This document shows, one piece after another, positions 1-58,455 of a stretch of DNA of 64,000 bases (positions within the stretch are counted from its first letter, which is position 1; each line of letters starts with the position of its first letter). A model generated the notes under the pieces. That model saw only the letters and a program-made list of their open reading frames with translations. It was not told where the DNA came from and did no database searches. The position numbers and the translations under genes were made by a program. The stretch is from Rickettsiales bacterium. Its GTDB lineage: Bacteria; Pseudomonadota; Alphaproteobacteria; Rickettsiales; SXRF01. The stretch lies in NCBI GenBank assembly GCA_021299465.1, contig JAJTHB010000005.1, forward strand, positions 173,044-237,043, written 5' to 3'.

Positions 1-1
1 C

Positions 2-1045
2 TCAACGAGGTTGCAGGCGGATGGTGGGATTCTGGTGAGGTCGGCGGCGGATGACATTACCGCTTATGATTTTTATTCTGTGCCGGGCTCCTCAAGTCAG
101 CCACCAGGCCCTAATCCGGTGATAGCACTCACCAAGTTGGAGCTGATCGATACAGCAGCATTTCCCGTTGATGAGTTTGATAAAGGCGTGCTTCGTTTCG
201 CTGGTGCTGGATTATCAGATGCATGGAACGGTGCTGCCGTTTATCGCTCAGATGATGCTGGCGCTAACTATAATCGTATTGGCGATATTGCCGCGCCTGC
301 CGCCATGGGAACCGCGATATCGATTCTTCCCGATGGTCCAACACAACTATTTGATGAGAAAAACAATGTTACGGTTAATCTGGTCGGTAATGCTACATTG
401 CAAAGCATTACTGAGTTTGCCGTACTGAACGGCGGCAATATCGCTTTGCTTGGTGATGAATTAATTCAGTTTCGAAATGCTGTATTGCTAGAGCCGGGTA
501 GGTATCAATTAAGTGGATTGCTACGCGGTAGGCTTGGTACGGAGTGGGCGACAAGCGGCCACTTAGCTGGTGAACGATTTATTCTCATGGATGGGCGAGC
601 AACCCGTCAACTCATGCCCACTAGCTTTATCAATCTATTAAGGCAATACAAGGCGGTTAGCTTTGGAAATACTTTAGGTGCTACCCCAGCAAGTGATTTC
701 ACCTACACAGGGGTAGCCTTAAAGCCATATAGCCCTGTTCATATCACGGCTATTCGGGATGGATCAGCCAATATCACGTTAAGCTGGATTAGAAGAACTC
801 GCCTGAGTGGTGCGTGGCAAGACTTTGTGGATGTGCCGCTTAATGAAGAAATGGAGAGCTACGAGGTCGATATCATGAGTGGCTCGAATGTTGTTCGCAC
901 CCTTGCCACTACAACTTCAACTGTCAGCTATCTCGTATCCCAGCAAATTGCTGATTTTGGCAGTGCTCAAGCGTCAGTGACAGCTAGGGTCTATCAGCTT
1001 TCAGCAACGATTGGGCGTGGATATGCAGCTATAGCAACAGTCTAG
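2..1045 (+). CDS. GTA/phage tail host-specificity (baseplate/megatron-like, RcGTA g15-type) protein, C-terminal part; 5' end lies outside the window
   Basis: Frame is open from base 2. Motifs ALLGDELIQF, YQLSGLLRGRLGTE and LSWIRRTR...DVPLNEEMESYEVDI resemble the C-terminus of GTA-type tail proteins. Confidence 0.8.
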   Translation, partial: STRLQADGGILVRSAADDITAYDFYSVPGSSSQPPGPNPVIALTKLELIDTAAFPVDEFDKGVLRFAGAGLSDAWNGAAVYRSDDAGANYNRIGDIAAPAAMGTAISILPDGPTQLFDEKNNVTVNLVGNATLQSITEFAVLNGGNIALLGDELIQFRNAVLLEPGRYQLSGLLRGRLGTEWATSGHLAGERFILMDGRATRQLMPTSFINLLRQYKAVSFGNTLGATPASDFTYTGVALKPYSPVHITAIRDGSANITLSWIRRTRLSGAWQDFVDVPLNEEMESYEVDIMSGSNVVRTLATTTSTVSYLVSQQIADFGSAQASVTARVYQLSATIGRGYAAIATV

Positions 1046-1576
1046 CTACCCCAGCAGTTTTTTCTTTTGCTGCTGAAACTCCTCTTCGGTGAGGTAGCCT
1101 TTTTCCTTTAGATCGGCGAGTTTGGCGAGCTGCGACGCAATATCCGTTGGTGCAGCGGGCCCTGCGTGCATTCGCGCATTAGCCTGTTTGGCAGCAAACA
1201 TGGCTTCTTCGGTTGCTTTCACAAACGGCATGATGGAGCTTTTGAGCACCAGCCGGATGGTAAAGGAGCTGGCCCCATCCCATACACTGATTGAGCCGAA
1301 AGCAATTGTGAATTCATGATCGATCGATTGGATGCGTTCCAGCGGAAACTGAACCTGACGCAGCCCAAAGATCATGCCACGGTTTAGGAAAATCAAACGC
1401 CGGTTAGTGCATACACCAAGCCAGGTGCTGCTGTTCATGATGCCGGATGTGACGGCTTTGACAGATTCATCATTTTCCAGAATCTCAGGCAGCGCGCGAA
1501 TTTCCTTCTCTGTCCAGAAGATATATCGGCCCGGGCAGGCGGCGATCTGGCGTTTGATTTCAGCAAGTGTTGGCAT
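1046..1576 (-). CDS. Bacterial PH-domain protein with C-terminal SHOCT domain
   Basis: GVCTNRRLIFL...QFPLERIQSI is bPH-like; DIASQLAKLADLKEKGYLTEEEFQQQKKKLL is a typical SHOCT. Confidence 0.8.
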   Translation of the reverse strand: MPTLAEIKRQIAACPGRYIFWTEKEIRALPEILENDESVKAVTSGIMNSSTWLGVCTNRRLIFLNRGMIFGLRQVQFPLERIQSIDHEFTIAFGSISVWDGASSFTIRLVLKSSIMPFVKATEEAMFAAKQANARMHAGPAAPTDIASQLAKLADLKEKGYLTEEEFQQQKKKLLG

Positions 1577-1647
1577 GGGGCAACCTCCAATTCACCCATC
1601 ATAGGCAAAGCTTTACCGAAATAAAATCATTTTTAAGGAGTAATTTT

Positions 1648-2553
1648 ATGGCAACTACCAGCCACCTTGGACTCACTCTGGTTGAGCAGGCGCAAGCGCA
1701 AAAAGAAGTGACCGTGAATCAGGCATTCGTCCGTATTGACGCTTTGCTGAATACCGGCGCAAAAAGCCGCGCTACGAATACCCCGCCTGCTTTGCCTGCC
1801 AGCGGTGATTTATATATTGTTGGTACCAGCCCCACTGGCGCATGGGCAGGACAGGCGAAGAAACTTGCTTATTTCGATCAGATTTGGAAATTCATATCGG
1901 CCGGCGAAGGCATGCTCATCTGGGTGAATGATGAATCACGCAGCTATTATTATAATGGTACGGATTGGTTGGCCGTCGTTGGTAATGATTTAAGTGCGCT
2001 TGAAGCATTATCAACCACAGGTTTTGCAGCGCGCACGGCAACCGATACTTGGGCAACACGCTCCATCACCGCCGGCAACGGCATCAATGTCGCTAATGGA
2101 AATGGCGCCTCTGGAAATCCAATCGTTTCATTTATTGGTGGATTTGAGGATCTAGGCGATAGCGGAATTATCAGCCCAGCAAATGGCGAAATAATGGCTT
2201 ATAGTGGTGGTTTGTGGCGGAACGCTAGAGGCATCGCAACGCTATTCTACAACACCCAATCCGCCACTTCTTACACGCTGGTTTCTGCGGATGCTGGCCG
2301 TACCATCTATTGCACAGCAGCGACAAGCATCACCTTAACCATGCCAAACAACTTCAGTGTTGGTTATAACTGCAACATTATTCAGGCAGGCGCCGGACAA
2401 ATCACTTTTACGCCAGCTTCCGGCGCACTTCGCAGGAATCGCCAATCGCATACCAGATCTGCCGGTCAATGGGCGGTGTGCCAGTTACAGGTTGTTGGTA
2501 ATTCAGGTGGAAGCGCGGCGGAGTATGTGCTTTCAGGAGATACGGCAGTATGA
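1648..2553 (+). CDS. DUF2793-domain tail-fibre-like protein
   Basis: N-terminus MATTSHLGLTLVEQAQAQKEVTVNQAFVRIDALL is typical of DUF2793; AAGGAG RBS precedes ATG 1648; Gly/Thr-rich fibre-like C-terminal half. Confidence 0.85.
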   Translation: MATTSHLGLTLVEQAQAQKEVTVNQAFVRIDALLNTGAKSRATNTPPALPASGDLYIVGTSPTGAWAGQAKKLAYFDQIWKFISAGEGMLIWVNDESRSYYYNGTDWLAVVGNDLSALEALSTTGFAARTATDTWATRSITAGNGINVANGNGASGNPIVSFIGGFEDLGDSGIISPANGEIMAYSGGLWRNARGIATLFYNTQSATSYTLVSADAGRTIYCTAATSITLTMPNNFSVGYNCNIIQAGAGQITFTPASGALRRNRQSHTRSAGQWAVCQLQVVGNSGGSAAEYVLSGDTAV

Positions 2554-2798
2554 GCGAAGAAAAACAACATTGGACGGTTGAGCGAAAAATCCCGATCGCT
2601 GTTATTATTGCCCTATTCATTCAGATGCTCGCGGCTGTGATATGGGCAACGGAGCTCGCAGCCCGAGTGGAAACCATCGAGCAGCATTTTTTAAGCAGCA
2701 GCGTTGCCAATGAGAGGTTTGCCCGACTTGAGGAGCGTCTTGAGTATATTCACGAGAACGTGACCATTATCCGCCGCAAGCTGGATAAGACGAATTAG
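2550..2798 (+). CDS. Small phage-type membrane protein (one TM segment plus coiled coil), possibly holin/lysis-associated
   Basis: Hydrophobic IPIAVIIALFIQMLAAVIWA; 4-nt overlap with the upstream gene; directly precedes the lysozyme. Confidence 0.55.
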   Translation: MSEEKQHWTVERKIPIAVIIALFIQMLAAVIWATELAARVETIEQHFLSSSVANERFARLEERLEYIHENVTIIRRKLDKTN

Positions 2799-2811
2799 TA
2801 GTGGTGGGCAT

Positions 2812-3261
2812 ATGATGCAAATATCTCAGGTTGGTATAGATTTGATCAAGCGTTTTGAAGGCTTTGCTTCTGAGCCTTACTATTGCCCCGGCGGAAAGCT
2901 GACTGTGGGTTATGGTCATGTGATGACAGATGAGGAAGCAGCGACTGTGGAGCGCATTACAAAAGAACACGCTGAAATATTACTCAGGCAGGACGCCAAA
3001 ATAGCCGAAGAAGCTATCAATAAATTGGTTTCCGTAGCAATTAAACAAAATCAGTTTGATGCACTGGTTTCGTTTGTGTTCAATGTTGGGGGGCATGCAT
3101 TTGAAAAATCAACCATGCTTAAATTATTGAATAATAATGATATTGGCGCTGCCGCCAGACAATTTGATCGCTGGGTGTATGCCGCAGGTAAGAAATTGGA
3201 GGGGCTGGCAAGGCGCAGGGCTGCTGAAAAGGCTCTATTTTTGGGTGATGCTGATATTTAA
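2812..3261 (+). CDS. Phage lysozyme / endolysin (GH24)
   Basis: IKRFEG...YYCPGGKLTVGYGH, QNQFDALVSFVFNVG and GLARRRAAE are GH24 signatures. Confidence 0.92.
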   Translation: MMQISQVGIDLIKRFEGFASEPYYCPGGKLTVGYGHVMTDEEAATVERITKEHAEILLRQDAKIAEEAINKLVSVAIKQNQFDALVSFVFNVGGHAFEKSTMLKLLNNNDIGAAARQFDRWVYAAGKKLEGLARRRAAEKALFLGDADI

Positions 3262-3331
3262 CAGAATTGTCACACAAAAATAGTCGGGTTTTAGGTATAT
3301 TGAGCCATCAACTTTAATCATGGGAGTTAGT

Positions 3332-3805
3332 ATGGCAGAAGAACAAAAGAATCCGGTTGCGAAAATTGAAGGTGGCAAAGTTGTACCTAGCGCTGCAGCT
3401 GATGCTGTTCAGGCTCAGGCAATTGCTGATGCAGAAGCAGCAGCTGGCATGGCTGTGGGTGGTGATGTTGCTTCGATGCAGCAGGCGCGTGATGCCGCTG
3501 CAGCGGCGGGTGCGACTAATGCCGTTGCCAATCTGGATGCGGCCATAGCTGCTGCGCCACAACAAACCGGTACCTCTAACATTCCGCCAGTCGTCGCTGC
3601 TGCAGCTGAAAAAGGCATTATCACTACTGCACAAGCTGAGCAGATTGGGCAGATGGCAGCTGAACAAACGGTTGCTTCTTCGGTAACTGCTCCTGATCAG
3701 GTTCAGCAATCTTTTGCGAGCAATGTGCAAACACCTGAGACTACTTACACTGGCCAAGTCGCGGCCGATAAAGCTGCTAAACCTGCTACACGTAGCGTTG
3801 CGTAG
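3332..3805 (+). CDS. Ala/Gln-rich hypothetical protein
   Basis: GGGAG RBS before ATG 3332; followed by a strong terminator; no family recognised. Confidence 0.7.
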   Translation: MAEEQKNPVAKIEGGKVVPSAAADAVQAQAIADAEAAAGMAVGGDVASMQQARDAAAAAGATNAVANLDAAIAAAPQQTGTSNIPPVVAAAAEKGIITTAQAEQIGQMAAEQTVASSVTAPDQVQQSFASNVQTPETTYTGQVAADKAAKPATRSVA

Positions 3806-3830
3806 TTATTAGTTATTACAAAAAATGATC

Positions 3831-3860
3831 AAGCCCCCACCGAAAGGTGGGGGCTTTTTT
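3831..3860. terminator. Bidirectional rho-independent terminator
   Basis: AAGCCCCCACC-GAAA-GGTGGGGGCTT hairpin followed by a T-run, between convergent genes. Confidence 0.9.
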
Positions 3861-3871
3861 TGTGTTTGTTA

Positions 3872-4210
3872 CTAGGCGTTCAGGCTGGTTTTTTCTAAGC
3901 GGCTGTTATCGTTGCTGGCGTAGAAGTCATGATCAAAGCCGTAATAATCTTTGATTTTGGTTTTGATCTGAGCCGTCGGCTCCCCATAGCCTTTTTCAAC
4001 AATCACCGCAAAATGCGGAATATCCCCTTTTTCAAGGCAGCTCATCATTTGCTCATGAAGCATCGCGCTGGCAATGGCATAGTAAAACATACGTTCCTTC
4101 TTCAGCTCGTCATAAGCCGGAATAAAATACACGTTAATCTTTTTTGCGGCCTCATATTTGGATTTATAATGAGGCAGGCTTTCCATCATGTCCTGATCGG
4201 GGTTGAGCAT
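3872..4210 (-). CDS. Hypothetical protein, conserved partner of two-gene module copy A
   Basis: Aligns by eye with 18750-18977 and 58126-58455; TGATG coupling to the upstream peptide. Confidence 0.75.
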   Translation of the reverse strand: MLNPDQDMMESLPHYKSKYEAAKKINVYFIPAYDELKKERMFYYAIASAMLHEQMMSCLEKGDIPHFAVIVEKGYGEPTAQIKTKIKDYYGFDHDFYASNDNSRLEKTSLNA

Positions 4211-4389
4211 CAGTCAACTCCTTTTCCAAGGTGATCAGGGCACTTGCTGGCAACCGTTCTTGCTACATGAGTGCCAAGACTTCCTTCACCACAAAGAACA
4301 CCTTTGGAGCCTATGGTGACGTGCTCTGGCTGCTGCCCCCCACGGTGGTTTCGTGTATTCATTCCGTCTACTAAATCACGAACACTCAT
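4210..4389 (-). CDS. 59-aa low-complexity peptide, module copy A
   Basis: AAGGGAG RBS upstream of ATG 4389; stop overlaps the next start; ends HLGKGVD. Confidence 0.6.
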   Translation of the reverse strand: MSVRDLVDGMNTRNHRGGQQPEHVTIGSKGVLCGEGSLGTHVARTVASKCPDHLGKGVD

Positions 4390-4492
4390 AACGTCTCCCT
4401 TCATTTCAATCTACTAGATCGGGAGACATTTTTCACGTTTACATCTGTGAATCTTTTGTGACAGATCGCAGACGAATTGATGACAGTCTAGT

Positions 4493-7105
4493 CTATTTTT
4501 GCTTGCCAAGCGTCTGCGGCAAGTCATTCACCTGCACACGCACCACATGCTTGGAAAGGTCAGGATTTCCTGGCCCGTGGAGCACTTCGCCTTCGAGCTT
4601 TTCCTGCTCACTTTGCGCAGGGTTTCTCTTATGCTCTTCCTGTTTTGCAAGTGTTACAGAAAGCTTAAACCAGCCTTTCTCGGAGGTAAATGGAAGGCTA
4701 TCATCTTTACTTTCTATTAAGAGGGAGCTATTCGCCGCGAGCTTTAAATCCTGCGCGACAGATTCCACCGCCTGCCAGTTCGCCGCAGCATCACTTATAA
4801 ACACTTCAATCTTGTCAACTGGGTTTTTGATCGAAACGCTTGCTTCGGATTTTGCTTTACGCACGACATTCAGAATATCCACCGCAGCGATGCCTGCCAG
4901 CTCGTGTTTTTCATCCAGCGGGAAATCAGCGGCCACTGGCCACTGGCCACGCGCATGCACAGAGCCATGCTTCGCATAATCATCAGCGAAGAGATGGCTG
5001 TAAATCTCCTCGGTGACATGAGGCACAAATGGCGCAAACAGTTTGAGTAGTGCATTCAGGCAGTGATAGAGCGTGCATAGCGCGGATTGTTGATTGCCAG
5101 GCACTTCGCCGTAAGAACGAGCCTTGACCAGCTCAAGATAATTATCGCAGAAATCATTCCAGAAAAAATCTTCGATTGCCACCCGCGCATCTGAGTATTC
5201 AAAGCGCTCAAACTCTGGCGTGGCCTTATGCACCGTGCGATGGAGGCGCGAGAGTATCCATAGATCCAGTGGCTCGCTGATAAGGCCGTTTTTAACATCC
5301 TTAGCGGCGCTGGTTGGCTTTATTTTAAGTTTATCAAGGTTGAGCGCGGCAAACTGGCTGGCATTCCAGATTTTACCCACCAGCTTGCGGCCGATTTTGA
5401 GTAAATCTTCAGAAAAAGCCGTATCAGCGCCGAGGCGAGAAGTCGACGCCCAGTAGCGCACCGCGTCCGTTCCTTTTTCCTCAATGAGCGCCACGGGGGT
5501 TACAACATTACCCTTAGATTTGCTCATTTTGGTTTTGTCAGAAGCTAAGCACCAGCCGGAGATCATCAGGTTTTTCCACGGCACGCAGTCTTCATGCAGG
5601 TGCGCTTTCACGATCGTGTAAAACGCCCATGTGCGTATAATCTCGTGCGCCTGCGGGCGGATATCGGCGGGAAACAACTTGTTTTGCTTTAATGATTTCG
5701 CATTAATCTGCGGCGAAATGGACGAGGTCGCCCACGTATCCATCACGTCCATATCAGGCGTAACTTCATCTCTACCATACCCTTTAGGGGTATCTACCAG
5801 CGGGTCAACAGGCAGTTGATCTGGCGATGCATAAATCGCCTTTCCAACTTCGCCTTCACGCTTCGAATACCACACTGGAAAAGGCACACCGAAAAAGCGC
5901 TGGCGCGAAATGCACCAGTCTTCCTTAAGACCTTCAATCCACTGATTCAGCCGAACGCGCATGTAGTCAGGATGCCAATGGCACTCCGCGCCCTTTGCCT
6001 TTAGCGCTTCTTTTTTATCCGTGATCCGCACGAACCATTGTTCGGTGGGAATAATCTCAATCGGCGTGCCGCTGCGCTCGGCGCATTTGACGCTATGGGT
6101 CATCGGCGTCTGCTTTTTTAGCTTTCCTGCGGCTTGCAGCAACTCCAGAATTTTTGCATTCGCTTGCTTTGGCTTTAGGCCGTTTAATTCGGCTATTTCA
6201 CTTTGCAGCCTTCCGTCTTTGCCTAAAATAGCTTTCAGCGGCAGGTTATATTTTCTCCACCACTCCTTATCCGTATCATCCCCAAAGGTACAACACATCA
6301 CAAGACCAGTGCCTTTGCCTTGTTCTACGGCCTCATCCGCAATCATCGGCACTTTTACACCAAATAGCGGGATGATGGCATGTTTGTCTTTGTAACTTGC
6401 AGCATTCGCATTTTCCGGATGATACATCACCGCGACGCATGCGCCGAGCAGTTCCGGACGGGTGGTCATGATGAGTAGCGGCGAGCCATCTTCCAGCGTG
6501 AACTCAATCTCATTCATCGTGCCCGGAAGTTCTTTATTCTCAATTTCTGCCTGCGCAATGGCGGTTTGATCCACCCAGTCCCAATAAGTTGGCCTAAAAT
6601 CGCGGTAGGCATGGCCTTTTGCCACTAAATCCAGAAATGATGCCTGCGAGAGTGCGCGTACATCGTCGTTGATCGTCTGGTATTCCTTGCGCCAATCCAC
6701 GGAAAGGGCGGTGCTTTTAAACAGTGCGCGGAATTCGTCTTCCGCTTCTTTCACCACCTCTTTACACAGCGCCACAAACTCCGCGCGCGGCATACCCGTA
6801 CCCCGTACCCCTTTGATCTTTTCAACAAGGCGCTCGGTGGGCAGGCCATTATCATCAAAACCCATAGGGTAGAAAACATCTTTGCCGCTCATGCGCTGGT
6901 AGCGCGCGACAAAATCCGCCTGTGTGTAGCTGAAGATATGCCCCATATGCAGAAGGCCGGAGACGGTTGGCGGCGGCGTATCGATGACAAAGGTTTTTTC
7001 GCGCGGCTGGTCGTCGCGGAAATGATACACATCGCTGGTTTCCCACACGCGCTGCCAGTGCTTTTCACGTTCTTTGTGTTCGTAGTTTTTAGGCAGCGGT
7101 TTCAT
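4493..7105 (-). CDS. valS: Valine--tRNA ligase, archaeal/rickettsial type, with ~49-aa C-terminal extension
   Basis: PTVSGLLHMGH (HIGH motif), KMSKS, WCISRQRFFGVPFPVWY, RPQAHEIIRTWAFY; lacks the bacterial C-terminal coiled-coil arm. Confidence 0.95.
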   Translation of the reverse strand: MKPLPKNYEHKEREKHWQRVWETSDVYHFRDDQPREKTFVIDTPPPTVSGLLHMGHIFSYTQADFVARYQRMSGKDVFYPMGFDDNGLPTERLVEKIKGVRGTGMPRAEFVALCKEVVKEAEDEFRALFKSTALSVDWRKEYQTINDDVRALSQASFLDLVAKGHAYRDFRPTYWDWVDQTAIAQAEIENKELPGTMNEIEFTLEDGSPLLIMTTRPELLGACVAVMYHPENANAASYKDKHAIIPLFGVKVPMIADEAVEQGKGTGLVMCCTFGDDTDKEWWRKYNLPLKAILGKDGRLQSEIAELNGLKPKQANAKILELLQAAGKLKKQTPMTHSVKCAERSGTPIEIIPTEQWFVRITDKKEALKAKGAECHWHPDYMRVRLNQWIEGLKEDWCISRQRFFGVPFPVWYSKREGEVGKAIYASPDQLPVDPLVDTPKGYGRDEVTPDMDVMDTWATSSISPQINAKSLKQNKLFPADIRPQAHEIIRTWAFYTIVKAHLHEDCVPWKNLMISGWCLASDKTKMSKSKGNVVTPVALIEEKGTDAVRYWASTSRLGADTAFSEDLLKIGRKLVGKIWNASQFAALNLDKLKIKPTSAAKDVKNGLISEPLDLWILSRLHRTVHKATPEFERFEYSDARVAIEDFFWNDFCDNYLELVKARSYGEVPGNQQSALCTLYHCLNALLKLFAPFVPHVTEEIYSHLFADDYAKHGSVHARGQWPVAADFPLDEKHELAGIAAVDILNVVRKAKSEASVSIKNPVDKIEVFISDAAANWQAVESVAQDLKLAANSSLLIESKDDSLPFTSEKGWFKLSVTLAKQEEHKRNPAQSEQEKLEGEVLHGPGNPDLSKHVVRVQVNDLPQTLGKQK

Positions 7106-18504: not shown

Positions 18505-18747
18505 ATGGAAAACGATACACCCATATATAGTTTAATCCCGCCATCAGAGCTGAGTGGTTTGTCTGCTGAGACCGCGGCAAGAATCTCCGAAAATCCTATG
18601 CCAACATCACAAAGGGTTTCTAACTTAACACCGCTTGAACTGGTTGGTCAGGGACAGCTATCAGCTAAAGATGCTGGCAAAAGTGACCCAGTTAGCCAGC
18701 CAATGCCATCAACTGGAAAAGAACCTTCCGGAAAAGGCAGGGGCTAG
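18505..18747 (+). CDS. 80-aa Ser/Pro-rich peptide, module copy B
   Basis: Ends SGKGRG; 2 nt before the partner gene. Confidence 0.65.
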   Translation: MENDTPIYSLIPPSELSGLSAETAARISENPMPTSQRVSNLTPLELVGQGQLSAKDAGKSDPVSQPMPSTGKEPSGKGRG

Positions 18748-18749
18748 CC

Positions 18750-18977
18750 ATGTTTGCCCGCAAGCAGGACGAGCTGGTTTTTCTTTCTAAAGGTACGCAT
18801 GAAGGTCGCCATACGTGGCACTATCTTCTAGTTAAAAAAATGAAGCTGCCGCAGCTCATGGAAGCGGTTAAGCAGGGACAGGTTGACCTTGCCCAGTATG
18901 GGCGTATTTTATTTTCCGGCTTTGGCGCTAATCCGCCAGCGGATGTCACGTTGCTGGTTCGTCAGAAATTCGGCTGA
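18750..18977 (+). CDS. Hypothetical protein, conserved partner of module copy B
   Basis: WHYLLVK...QGQVDLAQYGRILFSGFGANPP...FG aligns with the copy A and C partners. Confidence 0.8.
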   Translation: MFARKQDELVFLSKGTHEGRHTWHYLLVKKMKLPQLMEAVKQGQVDLAQYGRILFSGFGANPPADVTLLVRQKFG

Positions 18978-57891: not shown

Positions 57892-58122
57892 ATGAAGGCT
57901 TTTTTTGGCTCCGATGGAGCATTGCAAGTGGTTGCTGTGAGTGGTGCAATCGAAGCAAATAGTCCAGCCGCCAATCTTGTTACAGAAGCCATTCAGCAAA
58001 CCAGCTCTCGAAATTTTTCCGATTTAAGTTCGGGTGATTTATCGTCGATTGTTACCCTTCCAGCAGCGTCATCCCATTTATCTTTACCAATGTCTCCCAA
58101 TCCTCAGGGGCGCGGGCGGTAG
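57892..58122 (+). CDS. 76-aa Ser/Pro-rich peptide, module copy C
   Basis: GGGGGA RBS before ATG 57892; ends PNPQGRGR; 3 nt before the partner gene. Confidence 0.65.
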   Translation: MKAFFGSDGALQVVAVSGAIEANSPAANLVTEAIQQTSSRNFSDLSSGDLSSIVTLPAASSHLSLPMSPNPQGRGR

Positions 58123-58125
58123 ATC

Positions 58126-58455
58126 ATGGTGAGTGTGCATTTATCTCCGCCTTCATCAAGTCGTCACATGGCGGACTTATTATGCACGATCATTGTTTTG
58201 TGCCAGGCGAGTGATGAGCGCGGCGATCCTTTTTGGAGTTACCTGTGCCTAAAGCCGAGCATGGCGCAGGCCTTTCGTGAGGCGCGTTTGAAAGGCTCAT
58301 GCAATCTCGACGATTTTGGCACCATCATTGAACATGGTAAAGGTAACGCAGTCCCACTTGATGTGAAGCTTCGTATGGAGCGTGATTTCGGTGTGAATCA
58401 TAGGCTGGAAGATGATCTTGCCAAGGCGATTGAAGCCAGAAAACAAATCCAATAA
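58126..58455 (+). CDS. Hypothetical protein, conserved partner of module copy C (alternative start 58168)
   Basis: FWSYLCLK...KGSCNLDDFGTIIEHGKG...DFG aligns with the copy A and B partners. Confidence 0.8.
   Translation: MVSVHLSPPSSSRHMADLLCTIIVLCQASDERGDPFWSYLCLKPSMAQAFREARLKGSCNLDDFGTIIEHGKGNAVPLDVKLRMERDFGVNHRLEDDLAKAIEARKQIQ

What the first reader, a model, noticed from the sequence alone, without database searches (positions are those of the whole stretch)
4493..4642. ValRS carries a C-terminal extension homologous to the peptide of module A encoded just downstream
After the ValRS core (…KLSVTLAK) comes a 49-aa tail. Its end, VLHGPGNPDLSKHVVRVQVNDLPQTLGK, aligns with peptide A, VLCGEG--SLGTHVARTVASKCPDHLGK: 12 identities in 28 columns (V, L, G, G, L, H, V, R, P, L, G, K). 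The two DNA segments are visibly less similar than the proteins, suggesting protein-level constraint. Inference: either an essential tRNA synthetase has acquired the same tag as the peptide (export, localisation or partner binding), or an ancestral peptide copy fused to valS.
Basis: partly seen in the sequence, partly recalled or inferred. Interest (0 to 1): 0.78.

Follow-up and report, generated by a model that had tools for sequence, protein, structure and literature searches.

The report
ValRS tail is a fused small protein
The only valyl-tRNA synthetase of this uncultured alphaproteobacterium ends in a conserved 45-residue tail that also exists as a separate small protein in related genomes, and it always occurs with an uncharacterised 100-residue protein encoded just downstream, which suggests an undescribed synthetase-peptide-partner complex.

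Summary
valS (4493-7105, minus strand) encodes an archaeal-type ValRS with a 49-residue tail. This is the genome's only ValRS.

- **Not an assembly error.** The tail is in frame in independent assemblies and in 21 of 44 genomes of the family. It is under strong purifying selection and is absent from about 276 genomes of other families of the order.
- **Homology to peptide A.** On its own the similarity is modest: shuffle p about 0.001-0.003, and no DNA similarity. A linking sequence settles it. P0127 is a free-standing 56-residue protein encoded between a tail-less valS and the downstream "partner" gene. It matches the tail profile at E=1.8e-7 across 1.84 billion proteins, and matches peptide A at z=6.9.
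- **Fused or free.** The peptide is either fused to ValRS or separate. A second, unrelated peptide type shows the same fusion and fission. This genus has both forms.
- **Link to the partner.** All 21 tail-bearing genomes have the valS-linked partner orthologue. All 12 genomes without that orthologue lack the tail.
- **Structure.** AlphaFold predicts the tail to be disordered. The partner fold matches nothing in the PDB or BFVD.

Best reading (inferred): the tail is a tethered docking peptide for the partner. I found no support for a secretion tag. The function of the complex is unknown.

The parts
4493..7105 (-). valS: archaeal-type valyl-tRNA synthetase, 870 aa, the only ValRS in the genome
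   Evidence: ORF. Pfam tRNA-synt_1 plus Anticodon_1. NCBIfam PRK13208 scores 1044.8 bits against a cut-off of 738, with the match ending at residue 794. It is the only ValRS found by tblastn on the whole genome.
4493..4642 (-). C-terminal tail of ValRS (49 aa plus stop). Conserved motif: KRNPxQxxxEKLEGxVLHGPGxPDLSKHVVKVQVxxLPxTLxKQK.
   Evidence: Conserved in 65 distinct ValRS tails. Mean majority fraction is 0.75, against 0.57 for the preceding C-terminal domain. pN 0.04 against pS 0.78 within the genus. AlphaFold pLDDT is 27-42, against 80-90 for residues 580-822. Found on ValRS in 21 of 44 genomes of the family and in no genome of other families.
4405..4492 (-). Spacer between the valS stop and peptide A. 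It holds the conserved motif TGTCACAAAAGATTCACA (4446-4463), and there is no terminator after valS.
   Evidence: About 88% identical between G000 and G002/G003, while synonymous sites of the flanking genes differ at 44-78%. A 15-of-17 match to the motif occurs upstream of the free peptide of a distant genus, L021. The motif is unique in the window. No terminator was found here.
4210..4404 (-). Peptide A: a free-standing homologue of the ValRS tail. The probable start is the second ATG at 4389 (59 aa), which has the Shine-Dalgarno sequence AAGGGAG 7 nt upstream. From the first ATG it is 64 aa.
   Evidence: ORF; sequence. Frame and length are kept across saturated synonymous divergence (pN 0.29, pS 0.79). 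Public gene calls exist for it: P0121, P0122, P0130 and P0131. Homologous to the L021 and L012 peptides (z=8.0 and 6.9), to P0127 (z=6.9) and to the tail profile.
3872..4210 (-). Partner: a 112-aa protein of an unnamed family. Its start overlaps the peptide A stop (TGATG).
   Evidence: Orthologues (E<1e-30) lie directly after valS in 32 of 44 genomes of the family. dN/dS is 0.02-0.05 within the genus. No hit above threshold in Pfam, NCBIfam, PHROGs or PADLOC. AlphaFold gives pLDDT 78 overall and above 90 for the core, with the topology alpha-beta-beta-alpha-beta-alpha-alpha. No Foldseek match at E<=0.001 in the PDB or BFVD.
3831..3856 (.). Bidirectional intrinsic terminator that closes the valS-peptide A-partner operon and the convergent phage-like or GTA-like genes
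   Evidence: Stem of 11 pairs followed by T-runs on both strands.

Best explanation
The ValRS tail is a fused copy of a small protein that is otherwise encoded as a separate gene between valS and a conserved 100-113-aa partner gene.

**Shown**
- The tail, P0127 and the peptide A family are homologous.
- The peptide is fused to ValRS in 21 genomes of the family. It is free in at least four lineages. In this genus it is present in both forms.
- A second, unrelated peptide type at the same position is free in three genera and fused to ValRS in a fourth.
- The tail never occurs without the partner orthologue.
- The tail is strongly conserved, yet predicted to have no structure of its own.

**Inferred**
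- The peptide is a short docking element that folds on binding the partner protein. When fused, it tethers the partner to ValRS. When free, it is made together with the partner from a translationally coupled gene pair.
- In this genus the free peptide A may compete with the ValRS tail for the partner.

What the partner does for ValRS is unknown. The candidates are tRNA or nucleic-acid handling, regulation or inhibition of the enzyme, and localisation.
For: - **Tail conservation:**, with purifying selection.
- **Homology chain:** (P0127, E=1.8e-7 library-wide; P0127 lies between a tail-less 852-aa valS and a 113-aa partner; P0127 against the tail z=17.6, against peptide A z=6.9, against L021 z=6.9; profile-level support).
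- **Gene spacing:** tail-bearing valS lies -39 to +20 bp from the partner. Tail-less valS leaves 174-509 bp that hold a small ORF.
- **Second fusion case:** the L027 ValRS tail against the free peptides of L022 and L023 scores 63 and 57, reached by 0 of 3000 shuffles.
- **Phyletic pattern:** tail and partner both present in 21 genomes, tail without partner in 0, partner without tail in 11, neither in 12. Fisher p=8e-5, not corrected for phylogeny.
- **Restriction to one family:** both the tail and the valS-linked partner orthologue occur only in this family of the order.
- **Disordered tail:**
- **Translational coupling:** TGATG overlap.
Against: - No physical interaction was tested. Only single chains could be modelled.
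- The partner has no recognisable fold or family, so its activity is unknown.
- The co-occurrence statistic is inflated by shared ancestry. The joint absences are in genus g9, genus g18 and part of genus g12; how many independent losses they represent was not established.
- The ValRS AlphaFold model used a shallow alignment of 16 sequences (mean pLDDT 59.6), so the disorder call is only moderately reliable.
- Small ORFs in some tail-less spacers (L016, L018, L036, and the type-2 peptides) show no detectable similarity to the tail. A partner-linked upstream peptide therefore need not be of this family.
- aaRS C-terminal extensions often bind tRNA directly, which would explain the tail's conservation without any partner.
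Confidence: 0.55

Rival explanations
1. The tail is a tRNA-binding or ribosome-binding appendage of ValRS that works without the partner. It would stand in for the C-terminal coiled coil of bacterial-type ValRS, which this archaeal-type enzyme lacks. The partner is then just a neighbouring gene.
For: - From general knowledge, C-terminal extensions of class Ia synthetases commonly contact tRNA. An example is the LeuRS C-terminal domain (PMC3561953, listed).
- The tail ends in a basic K/RQK and is as conserved as the anticodon-binding domain.
- No Val_tRNA-synt_C coiled coil was found.
Against: - The same peptide exists as a separate gene product, detached from ValRS and translationally coupled to the partner.
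- The tail never occurs without the partner orthologue.
- The tail's net charge is about neutral.
- Eleven genomes of the family have the partner orthologue but no tail, and another 12 have neither.
Confidence: 0.2
2. Peptide plus partner is a toxin-antitoxin-like pair, with a labile, disordered antitoxin encoded upstream of a small globular toxin. The ValRS tail would then be an antitoxin domain captured by an essential enzyme.
For: - The gene order, with a small upstream gene and a TGATG overlap.
- The peptide evolves about 15 times faster than the partner: dN 0.37 against 0.024.
- The partner superfamily is multi-copy, with 1-6 copies per genome, and some copies sit in phage-like or GTA-like regions.
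- The upstream peptides of the paralogues are lineage-specific.
Against: - No hit above threshold to any toxin, antitoxin or defence family in Pfam, NCBIfam or PADLOC; the single PADLOC E1-E2 hit at E=0.0097 was not pursued.
- No DNA-binding domain is present in the peptide.
- The valS-linked partner stays at one locus in 32 of 44 genomes of the family and is under strong purifying selection.
- Most genomes have no free antitoxin gene at all.
Confidence: 0.12
3. The tail and peptide A share a C-terminal export or localisation tag.
Against: - The ValRS-peptide A resemblance is explained by common descent over about 45 aligned residues, not by a short convergent tag.
- This is the only ValRS in the genome, so it must act in the cytosol.
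- The tail occurs only on ValRS in these genomes.
- No secretion genes lie in the operon.
Confidence: 0.04
4. The similarity is due to chance, and peptide A is a spurious ORF.
For: The pairwise score is modest (p about 0.001-0.003). There is no DNA similarity.
Against: - The intermediate P0127 links both with strong scores.
- Peptide A has a strong Shine-Dalgarno sequence and keeps its frame and length across dS above 1, with pN well below pS.
- Homologues exist at the same position in other genera.
Confidence: 0.02

Closest known systems
Rosetta-stone gene fusion and fission (domain-fusion logic for predicting interacting proteins)
   Same: A protein that is separate in some genomes (P0127, the L021 and L012 peptides, peptide A) is fused to a neighbouring gene product (ValRS) in others. 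The usual inference of a functional or physical link applies.
   Different: - The fused element is a disordered peptide of about 45 residues, not a folded domain.
- One genus carries both the fused and the free copy.
- The inferred binding target is a third protein, the partner, not ValRS itself.
Appended domains and accessory proteins of aminoacyl-tRNA synthetases. Examples: the cyanobacterial ValRS with a CAAD membrane-anchor insertion (PMC4893482); from general knowledge, the eukaryotic ValRS N-terminal extension that binds EF-1H, and Arc1p with MetRS and GluRS.
   Same: A lineage-specific appendage on an otherwise ordinary synthetase, probably mediating an interaction beyond catalysis.
   Different: The sequence, position (extreme C-terminus) and inferred partner are unrelated to any of these. 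The appendage also exists as a free gene.
C-terminal coiled-coil domain of bacterial-type ValRS (Pfam Val_tRNA-synt_C)
   Same: It is at the C-terminus of ValRS and could in principle help bind tRNA.
   Different: That domain was not detected here. The tail is predicted to be disordered, not a long helical hairpin, and it is only 49 residues long.
KTSC domain (Pfam PF13619). From my recollection of the Pfam entry it is named after a C-terminal domain of some lysyl-tRNA synthetases; PMC9503650 calls it DNA-binding.
   Same: Conserved paralogues of the partner give repeated sub-threshold KTSC hits over the same YxY-helix segment: E 0.002-0.15 in 5 of 11 sequences. KTSC is also a small domain associated with a synthetase.
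   Different: No hit reaches the gathering score of 25 bits. The 19 valS-linked partner orthologues give no KTSC hit at all. Only about half of the KTSC profile is covered.
Type II toxin-antitoxin operons
   Same: A small, fast-evolving and probably disordered upstream product is translationally coupled to a conserved small globular protein, and the genome holds several paralogous copies.
   Different: There is no family match and no DNA-binding domain. The locus is retained at one position next to an essential gene across the family, and the "antitoxin" is usually part of ValRS.

Membership tests
Archaeal-type ValRS (NCBIfam NF009687 / PRK13208) | Score above the curated cut-off of the equivalog model | tested here: met
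   1044.8 bits against a cut-off of 738, covering residues 2-794.
Archaeal-type ValRS (NCBIfam NF009687 / PRK13208) | Class I catalytic core and anticodon-binding domain, with the HIGH-like and KMSKS signatures | tested here: met
   Pfam tRNA-synt_1 (E=1e-81) and Anticodon_1 (E=7e-38). LHMGH and KMSKS are readable in the translation.
Bacterial ValRS C-terminal coiled coil (Val_tRNA-synt_C) | Pfam match to the coiled-coil domain, and a long helical hairpin | tested here: not met
   No such Pfam hit. The tail has pLDDT 27-42 with almost no secondary structure.
Rosetta-stone fusion and fission pair | Homologous sequence present as a separate gene in some genomes and as part of a larger protein in others | tested here: met
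   P0127 is free and lies between a tail-less valS and the partner. It scores E=1.8e-7 against the tail profile and z=17.6 against the tail. A second case: the L027 tail against the free L022 and L023 peptides.
Rosetta-stone fusion and fission pair | Physical or functional interaction of the components | not testable with these tools
   Only single-chain structure prediction was available. Support is indirect, from co-occurrence: tail and partner together in 21 genomes, tail without partner in 0.
Type II toxin-antitoxin system | Match of either component to a known toxin or antitoxin family | tested here: not met
   No match above threshold in Pfam, NCBIfam, PHROGs or PADLOC.
Type II toxin-antitoxin system | Small upstream gene overlapping or abutting the downstream gene | tested here: met
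   TGATG overlap of the peptide A stop with the partner start.
Type II toxin-antitoxin system | Toxicity of the downstream product, neutralised by the upstream one | not testable with these tools
   This needs expression experiments.
KTSC domain (PF13619), for the partner protein | Score at or above the Pfam gathering threshold (25 bits) | tested here: not met
   Best score 18.2 bits (E=0.002), and only for the conserved paralogue. No hit for the 19 valS-linked orthologues.
Secretion or export signal | Association with a secretion system, or presence of the tag on several exported proteins | tested here: inconclusive
   The tail profile matches only ValRS in 44 genomes of the family and 301 of the order. 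No secretion genes lie in the operon. Export itself cannot be tested by computation.

The most novel reading that the evidence does not exclude
ValRS, the tail or free peptide, and the partner form a previously unknown three-component synthetase accessory system specific to one family of uncultured Rickettsiales-like bacteria. The partner would be a new-fold protein, possibly a remote KTSC-like nucleic-acid binder, recruited to ValRS by a disordered docking peptide. In genera that keep a free peptide gene, that peptide would compete with the ValRS tail and so regulate how much partner is bound to the enzyme.
Probability: 0.2. Interest if true: 0.75.

Novelty: new variant of a known kind. Interest (0 to 1): 0.56.

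Why it matters
Lineage-specific appendages of aminoacyl-tRNA synthetases are a main way these enzymes gain extra functions, and almost all well-studied cases are eukaryotic. This case is bacterial, and comparative genomics gives an unusually complete picture of it:

- The free, the fused and the "both" states of one peptide are all observed.
- A parallel fusion of a second peptide type occurs at the same site.
- The tail always occurs with one small, fold-unknown protein.

This gives a concrete, testable prediction of a ValRS-associated complex. It also gives a first handle on a small-protein superfamily that is present in about 40% of sampled genomes of the order and has no name or known function. 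In addition, it shows that a highly conserved but disordered peptide can move between being a gene and being a protein tail.

Tried and rejected
- **DNA similarity.** Tail-coding DNA and peptide A DNA show no similarity. A recent tandem duplication is therefore rejected.
- **Spacer RNA.** An Rfam scan of 3700-4800 found only noise around the terminator. No sigma-70-like promoter was found.
- **Family searches.** Pfam, NCBIfam, PHROGs and PADLOC gave nothing for peptide A, the tail, the partner or the partner paralogues.
- **Partner structure.** Foldseek against the PDB and BFVD gave nothing at E<=0.001. A profile search against PDB sequences gave nothing.
- **Type-2 peptides (L022, L023, L028).** They show no profile-level similarity to the tail or to peptide A. 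A short C-terminal match to this genome's peptide A (p=0.001-0.02) is not shared by the G002 allele, so I did not claim homology.
- **Other spacer ORFs.** Those of L016, L018 and L036 could not be linked to the family.
- **Trees.** Partner and ValRS trees were compared to test for horizontal replacement of the peptide A-partner segment. Support was too weak to decide.
- **Peptides B and C.** The peptides of the other two modules in the window are lineage-specific and uninformative.
- **Literature.** Searches found nothing on this tail or on the partner family.
- **In-frame read-through fusion.** Only one relative (L052) has the partner in frame after the valS stop. That is too few for an alignment-based fold of a tail-partner chain, so it was not attempted.
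Full report
**What is there.** Window 4493-7105 (minus strand) encodes an 870-aa ValRS. It has the class I catalytic core and the anticodon-binding domain. It is the archaeal-type enzyme: NCBIfam PRK13208 scores 1044.8 bits against a cut-off of 738, and the match ends at residue 794. tblastn over the whole 1.95-Mb assembly finds no other ValRS.

Downstream on the same strand, with no terminator in between, lie four features:
- an 88-bp spacer;
- peptide A (4210-4404). The probable start is the ATG at 4389, which gives 59 aa and has an AAGGGAG Shine-Dalgarno sequence 7 nt upstream;
- a 112-aa "partner" gene (3872-4210), whose ATG overlaps the peptide's TGA as TGATG;
- a bidirectional terminator at 3831-3856.

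**Check of the observation.** Four of 5000 and 15 of 5000 shuffles reach that score, and there is no DNA similarity. On its own this is suggestive only.

**The tail is real and old.** A homologue search with the ValRS C-terminus returned dozens of ValRS from uncultured "Rickettsiales/Alphaproteobacteria bacterium" MAGs that cover the tail fully.
- Sixty-five distinct tails align almost without gaps to KRNPDQxEHEKLEGKVLHGPGxPDLSKHVVKVQVxxLPxTLxRQK.
- Near-identical tails occur in several independent assemblies of the same species or genus (P0001-P0006), which rules out a lost stop codon.
- Within the genus the tail has pN 0.04 against pS 0.78.
- Across genera it is as conserved as the anticodon-binding domain (0.75 against 0.78). 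It is much more conserved than the C-terminal domain just before it (0.57).
- A six-frame profile search finds the tail in 21 of 44 genomes of the family (12 of 19 genera). It is always a single copy at the end of a ValRS-sized open frame.
- It is found in none of about 276 genomes of other families of the order.

**Locus anatomy across relatives.** The partner gene follows valS throughout the family.
- Where ValRS has the tail, the partner starts -39 to +20 bp from the valS stop.
- Where ValRS lacks the tail (it then ends a few residues after ...GWFxVxVTL), there is a 174-509 bp spacer containing a small ORF.
- This genus (G000, G002, G003) is the exception. It has the tail and also a 282-284 bp spacer with peptide A. 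One other tail-bearing genome (L044) has an unrelated 1665-bp insertion.

**Peptide A is a gene.** Between G000 and G002 the ORF keeps its frame and its 195-nt length although synonymous sites are saturated (pN 0.29, pS 0.79). It has a strong ribosome-binding site. Public gene callers predict it in several assemblies (P0121, P0122, P0130, P0131). Homologous small ORFs sit at the same position in two other genera: L021 scores 60 (z=8.0) and L012 scores 55 (z=6.9).

**Homology of the tail and peptide A.**
- Profile against profile (65 tails against 6 free peptides): 83% probability, P=9e-6 over 40 columns. One of 200 column shuffles reached the score.
- A tail HMM against 63 frame translations of valS-downstream DNA ranks the L021 peptide first (E=6e-4) and the window's peptide A second (E=0.016). 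The G003 and G002 alleles rank fourth and fifth.
- The decisive result came from searching the tail profile against 1.84 billion representative proteins. Only five hits appeared. Four are ValRS C-terminal fragments. The fifth is P0127, a 56-aa protein, at E=1.8e-7.
- P0127 is encoded between a tail-less 852-aa valS and a 113-aa partner orthologue, 60 bp after the first and 2 bp before the second.
- P0127 scores 96 against this genome's tail (z=17.6), 59 against peptide A (z=6.9, 0 of 5000 shuffles), 48 against the G002 allele (z=5.8) and 56 against L021 (z=6.9). All are in one register (alignment).

The tail and the peptide A family are therefore homologous through an intermediate. Peptide A shares features with the other free peptides that tails lack: an N-terminal M[SA]xxD leader, a one-residue insertion (GSxG[IV]L) and a CP motif. 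It is therefore a member of the old free-peptide lineage and not a recent copy of the adjacent tail.

**A second, independent fusion.** In G015 (L027) ValRS carries a different, longer tail and abuts the partner. That tail is significantly similar to the free "type-2" small proteins encoded in the spacers of L022 and L023 (scores 63 and 57; 0 of 3000 shuffles). Type-2 peptides show no detectable similarity to the canonical tail. Fusion or fission between ValRS and whatever peptide precedes the partner has therefore happened more than once.

**Link to the partner.** A profile search for the partner in the 44 genomes of the family separates two groups. The valS-linked orthologues score E<1e-30. 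A conserved paralogue scores about E=1e-13. Combining this gives four classes: tail and partner orthologue both present in 21 genomes; tail without orthologue in 0; orthologue without tail in 11; neither in 12. Fisher p=8e-5.
- This is not corrected for phylogeny. The joint absences are in genus g9, genus g18 and part of genus g12; the number of independent losses was not established.
- In the ValRS core tree, tail-less lineages are scattered among tail-bearing ones.
- Outside the family the valS-linked orthologue is absent. Paralogues of the superfamily, however, occur in 124 of 301 genomes of the order.

**Structure.** The partner model has a confident core (pLDDT above 90 for residues about 30-90) with an alpha-beta-beta-alpha-beta-alpha-alpha topology. 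It has no Foldseek match at E<=0.001 in the PDB or BFVD and no family match. In a full-length ValRS model from a shallow 16-sequence alignment, residues 580-822 have pLDDT 80-90, while the tail (823-870) has 27-42. High sequence conservation without intrinsic structure is what one expects of a peptide that folds on binding something.

**Mechanism.**
- *Shown:* the homology, the fusion and fission, the co-occurrence with the partner, the purifying selection and the translational coupling.
- *Inferred:* the peptide is a docking element for the partner. Fused, it tethers the partner to ValRS. Free, it is made with the partner. In this genus the two copies could compete.
- *Rivals:*
  - A partner-independent tRNA-binding tail (0.2). 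It is plausible from what is known of class Ia C-terminal extensions, but it does not explain the free form or the co-occurrence.
  - A toxin-antitoxin-like pair (0.12). The gene order, the rate asymmetry and the multi-copy paralogues fit. There is, however, no family match, and the locus is retained at one position next to an essential gene.
  - A secretion tag (0.04).
  - Chance (0.02, refuted).

**Comparison with known systems.** This is a Rosetta-stone fusion and fission involving a synthetase appendage. It resembles other lineage-specific aaRS extensions only in kind; one example is the cyanobacterial ValRS CAAD insertion (PMC4893482, listed). It is not the bacterial ValRS coiled coil. 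The conserved paralogue of the partner gives repeated sub-threshold KTSC (PF13619) hits over one segment (E 0.002-0.15 in 5 of 11). The valS-linked orthologues give none, so KTSC remains a lead and not a classification.

**Limits.**
- No interaction test was possible.
- The direction of the event (fusion or fission) and the origin of the "both" state in this genus are not resolved.

**Verdict.** The finding is a new variant of a known kind of event, an appended peptide on an aaRS arising by gene fusion. It points to an uncharacterised partner protein. Interest is moderate.

Noticed in passing
window 3872-4404, compared with L002 and L003 (G002, G003): Between G002 and G003 the spacer plus peptide A is nearly identical (pS 0.02), while the flanking valS tail and partner have pS 0.20-0.34. 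Either the segment was recently exchanged between the two species or it is constrained at the nucleotide level. Between G000 and G002 the same ORF is the most diverged part of the locus.
   Followed up: partly
window 4446-4463 (minus strand): The motif TGTCACAAAAGATTCACA in the valS-peptide A spacer is conserved in the genus. It recurs at 15 of 17 positions upstream of the free peptide of a distant genus, L021. It may be a promoter or an operator for the peptide-partner pair. It is not present in L074.
   Followed up: partly
genome C36:156910-157236 (about 16 kb upstream of the window start): A paralogue of the partner sits with its own promoter-like and terminator-like signals inside a phage-like or GTA-like head gene cluster, next to the capsid, protease and connector genes. 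It lies 19-28 kb from valS in most genomes of the family. By eye it is about 70-80% identical across families of the order (KLTxSEQIIAEKTVCVLLVRGExPDGxxIYAYVAVRADKLExFMEAQKSGxFYPEDYGVIxESGEGEP). It gives sub-threshold KTSC hits.
   Followed up: partly
window 1-3805 (plus strand): The end of a phage-like or GTA-like cluster converges on the valS operon: a DUF2793 tail-fibre-like protein (1567-2553), a phage lysozyme (2812-3261) and an Ala-rich 161-aa protein (3320-3805). The same arrangement (a 162-aa gene, then a lysozyme) follows the partner gene in L074. The cluster therefore appears to be a conserved neighbour and not a recent prophage.
   Followed up: no
window 18505-18977 and 57892-58455: Two further partner-family genes (75 and 109 aa) each follow a short, low-complexity peptide gene ending in GKGRG or GRGR. 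Both peptides are lineage-specific: B occurs only in G000 and G003, and C only in G000.
   Followed up: partly
L015, L021, L048 (genus g10) and L063-L073 (genus g12): Species placed in the same genus carry very different valS 3' ends. Some have the tail and some do not, some have the partner and some do not, and their ValRS proteins fall in different clades. This suggests recombination or horizontal replacement of the valS-partner locus, or errors in MAG binning.
   Followed up: no
L052 (G004), valS stop and partner start: In this relative the partner ORF begins at the codon directly after the valS stop and in the same frame. A single stop-codon read-through or stop loss would therefore give a ValRS-tail-partner fusion protein.
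   Followed up: no
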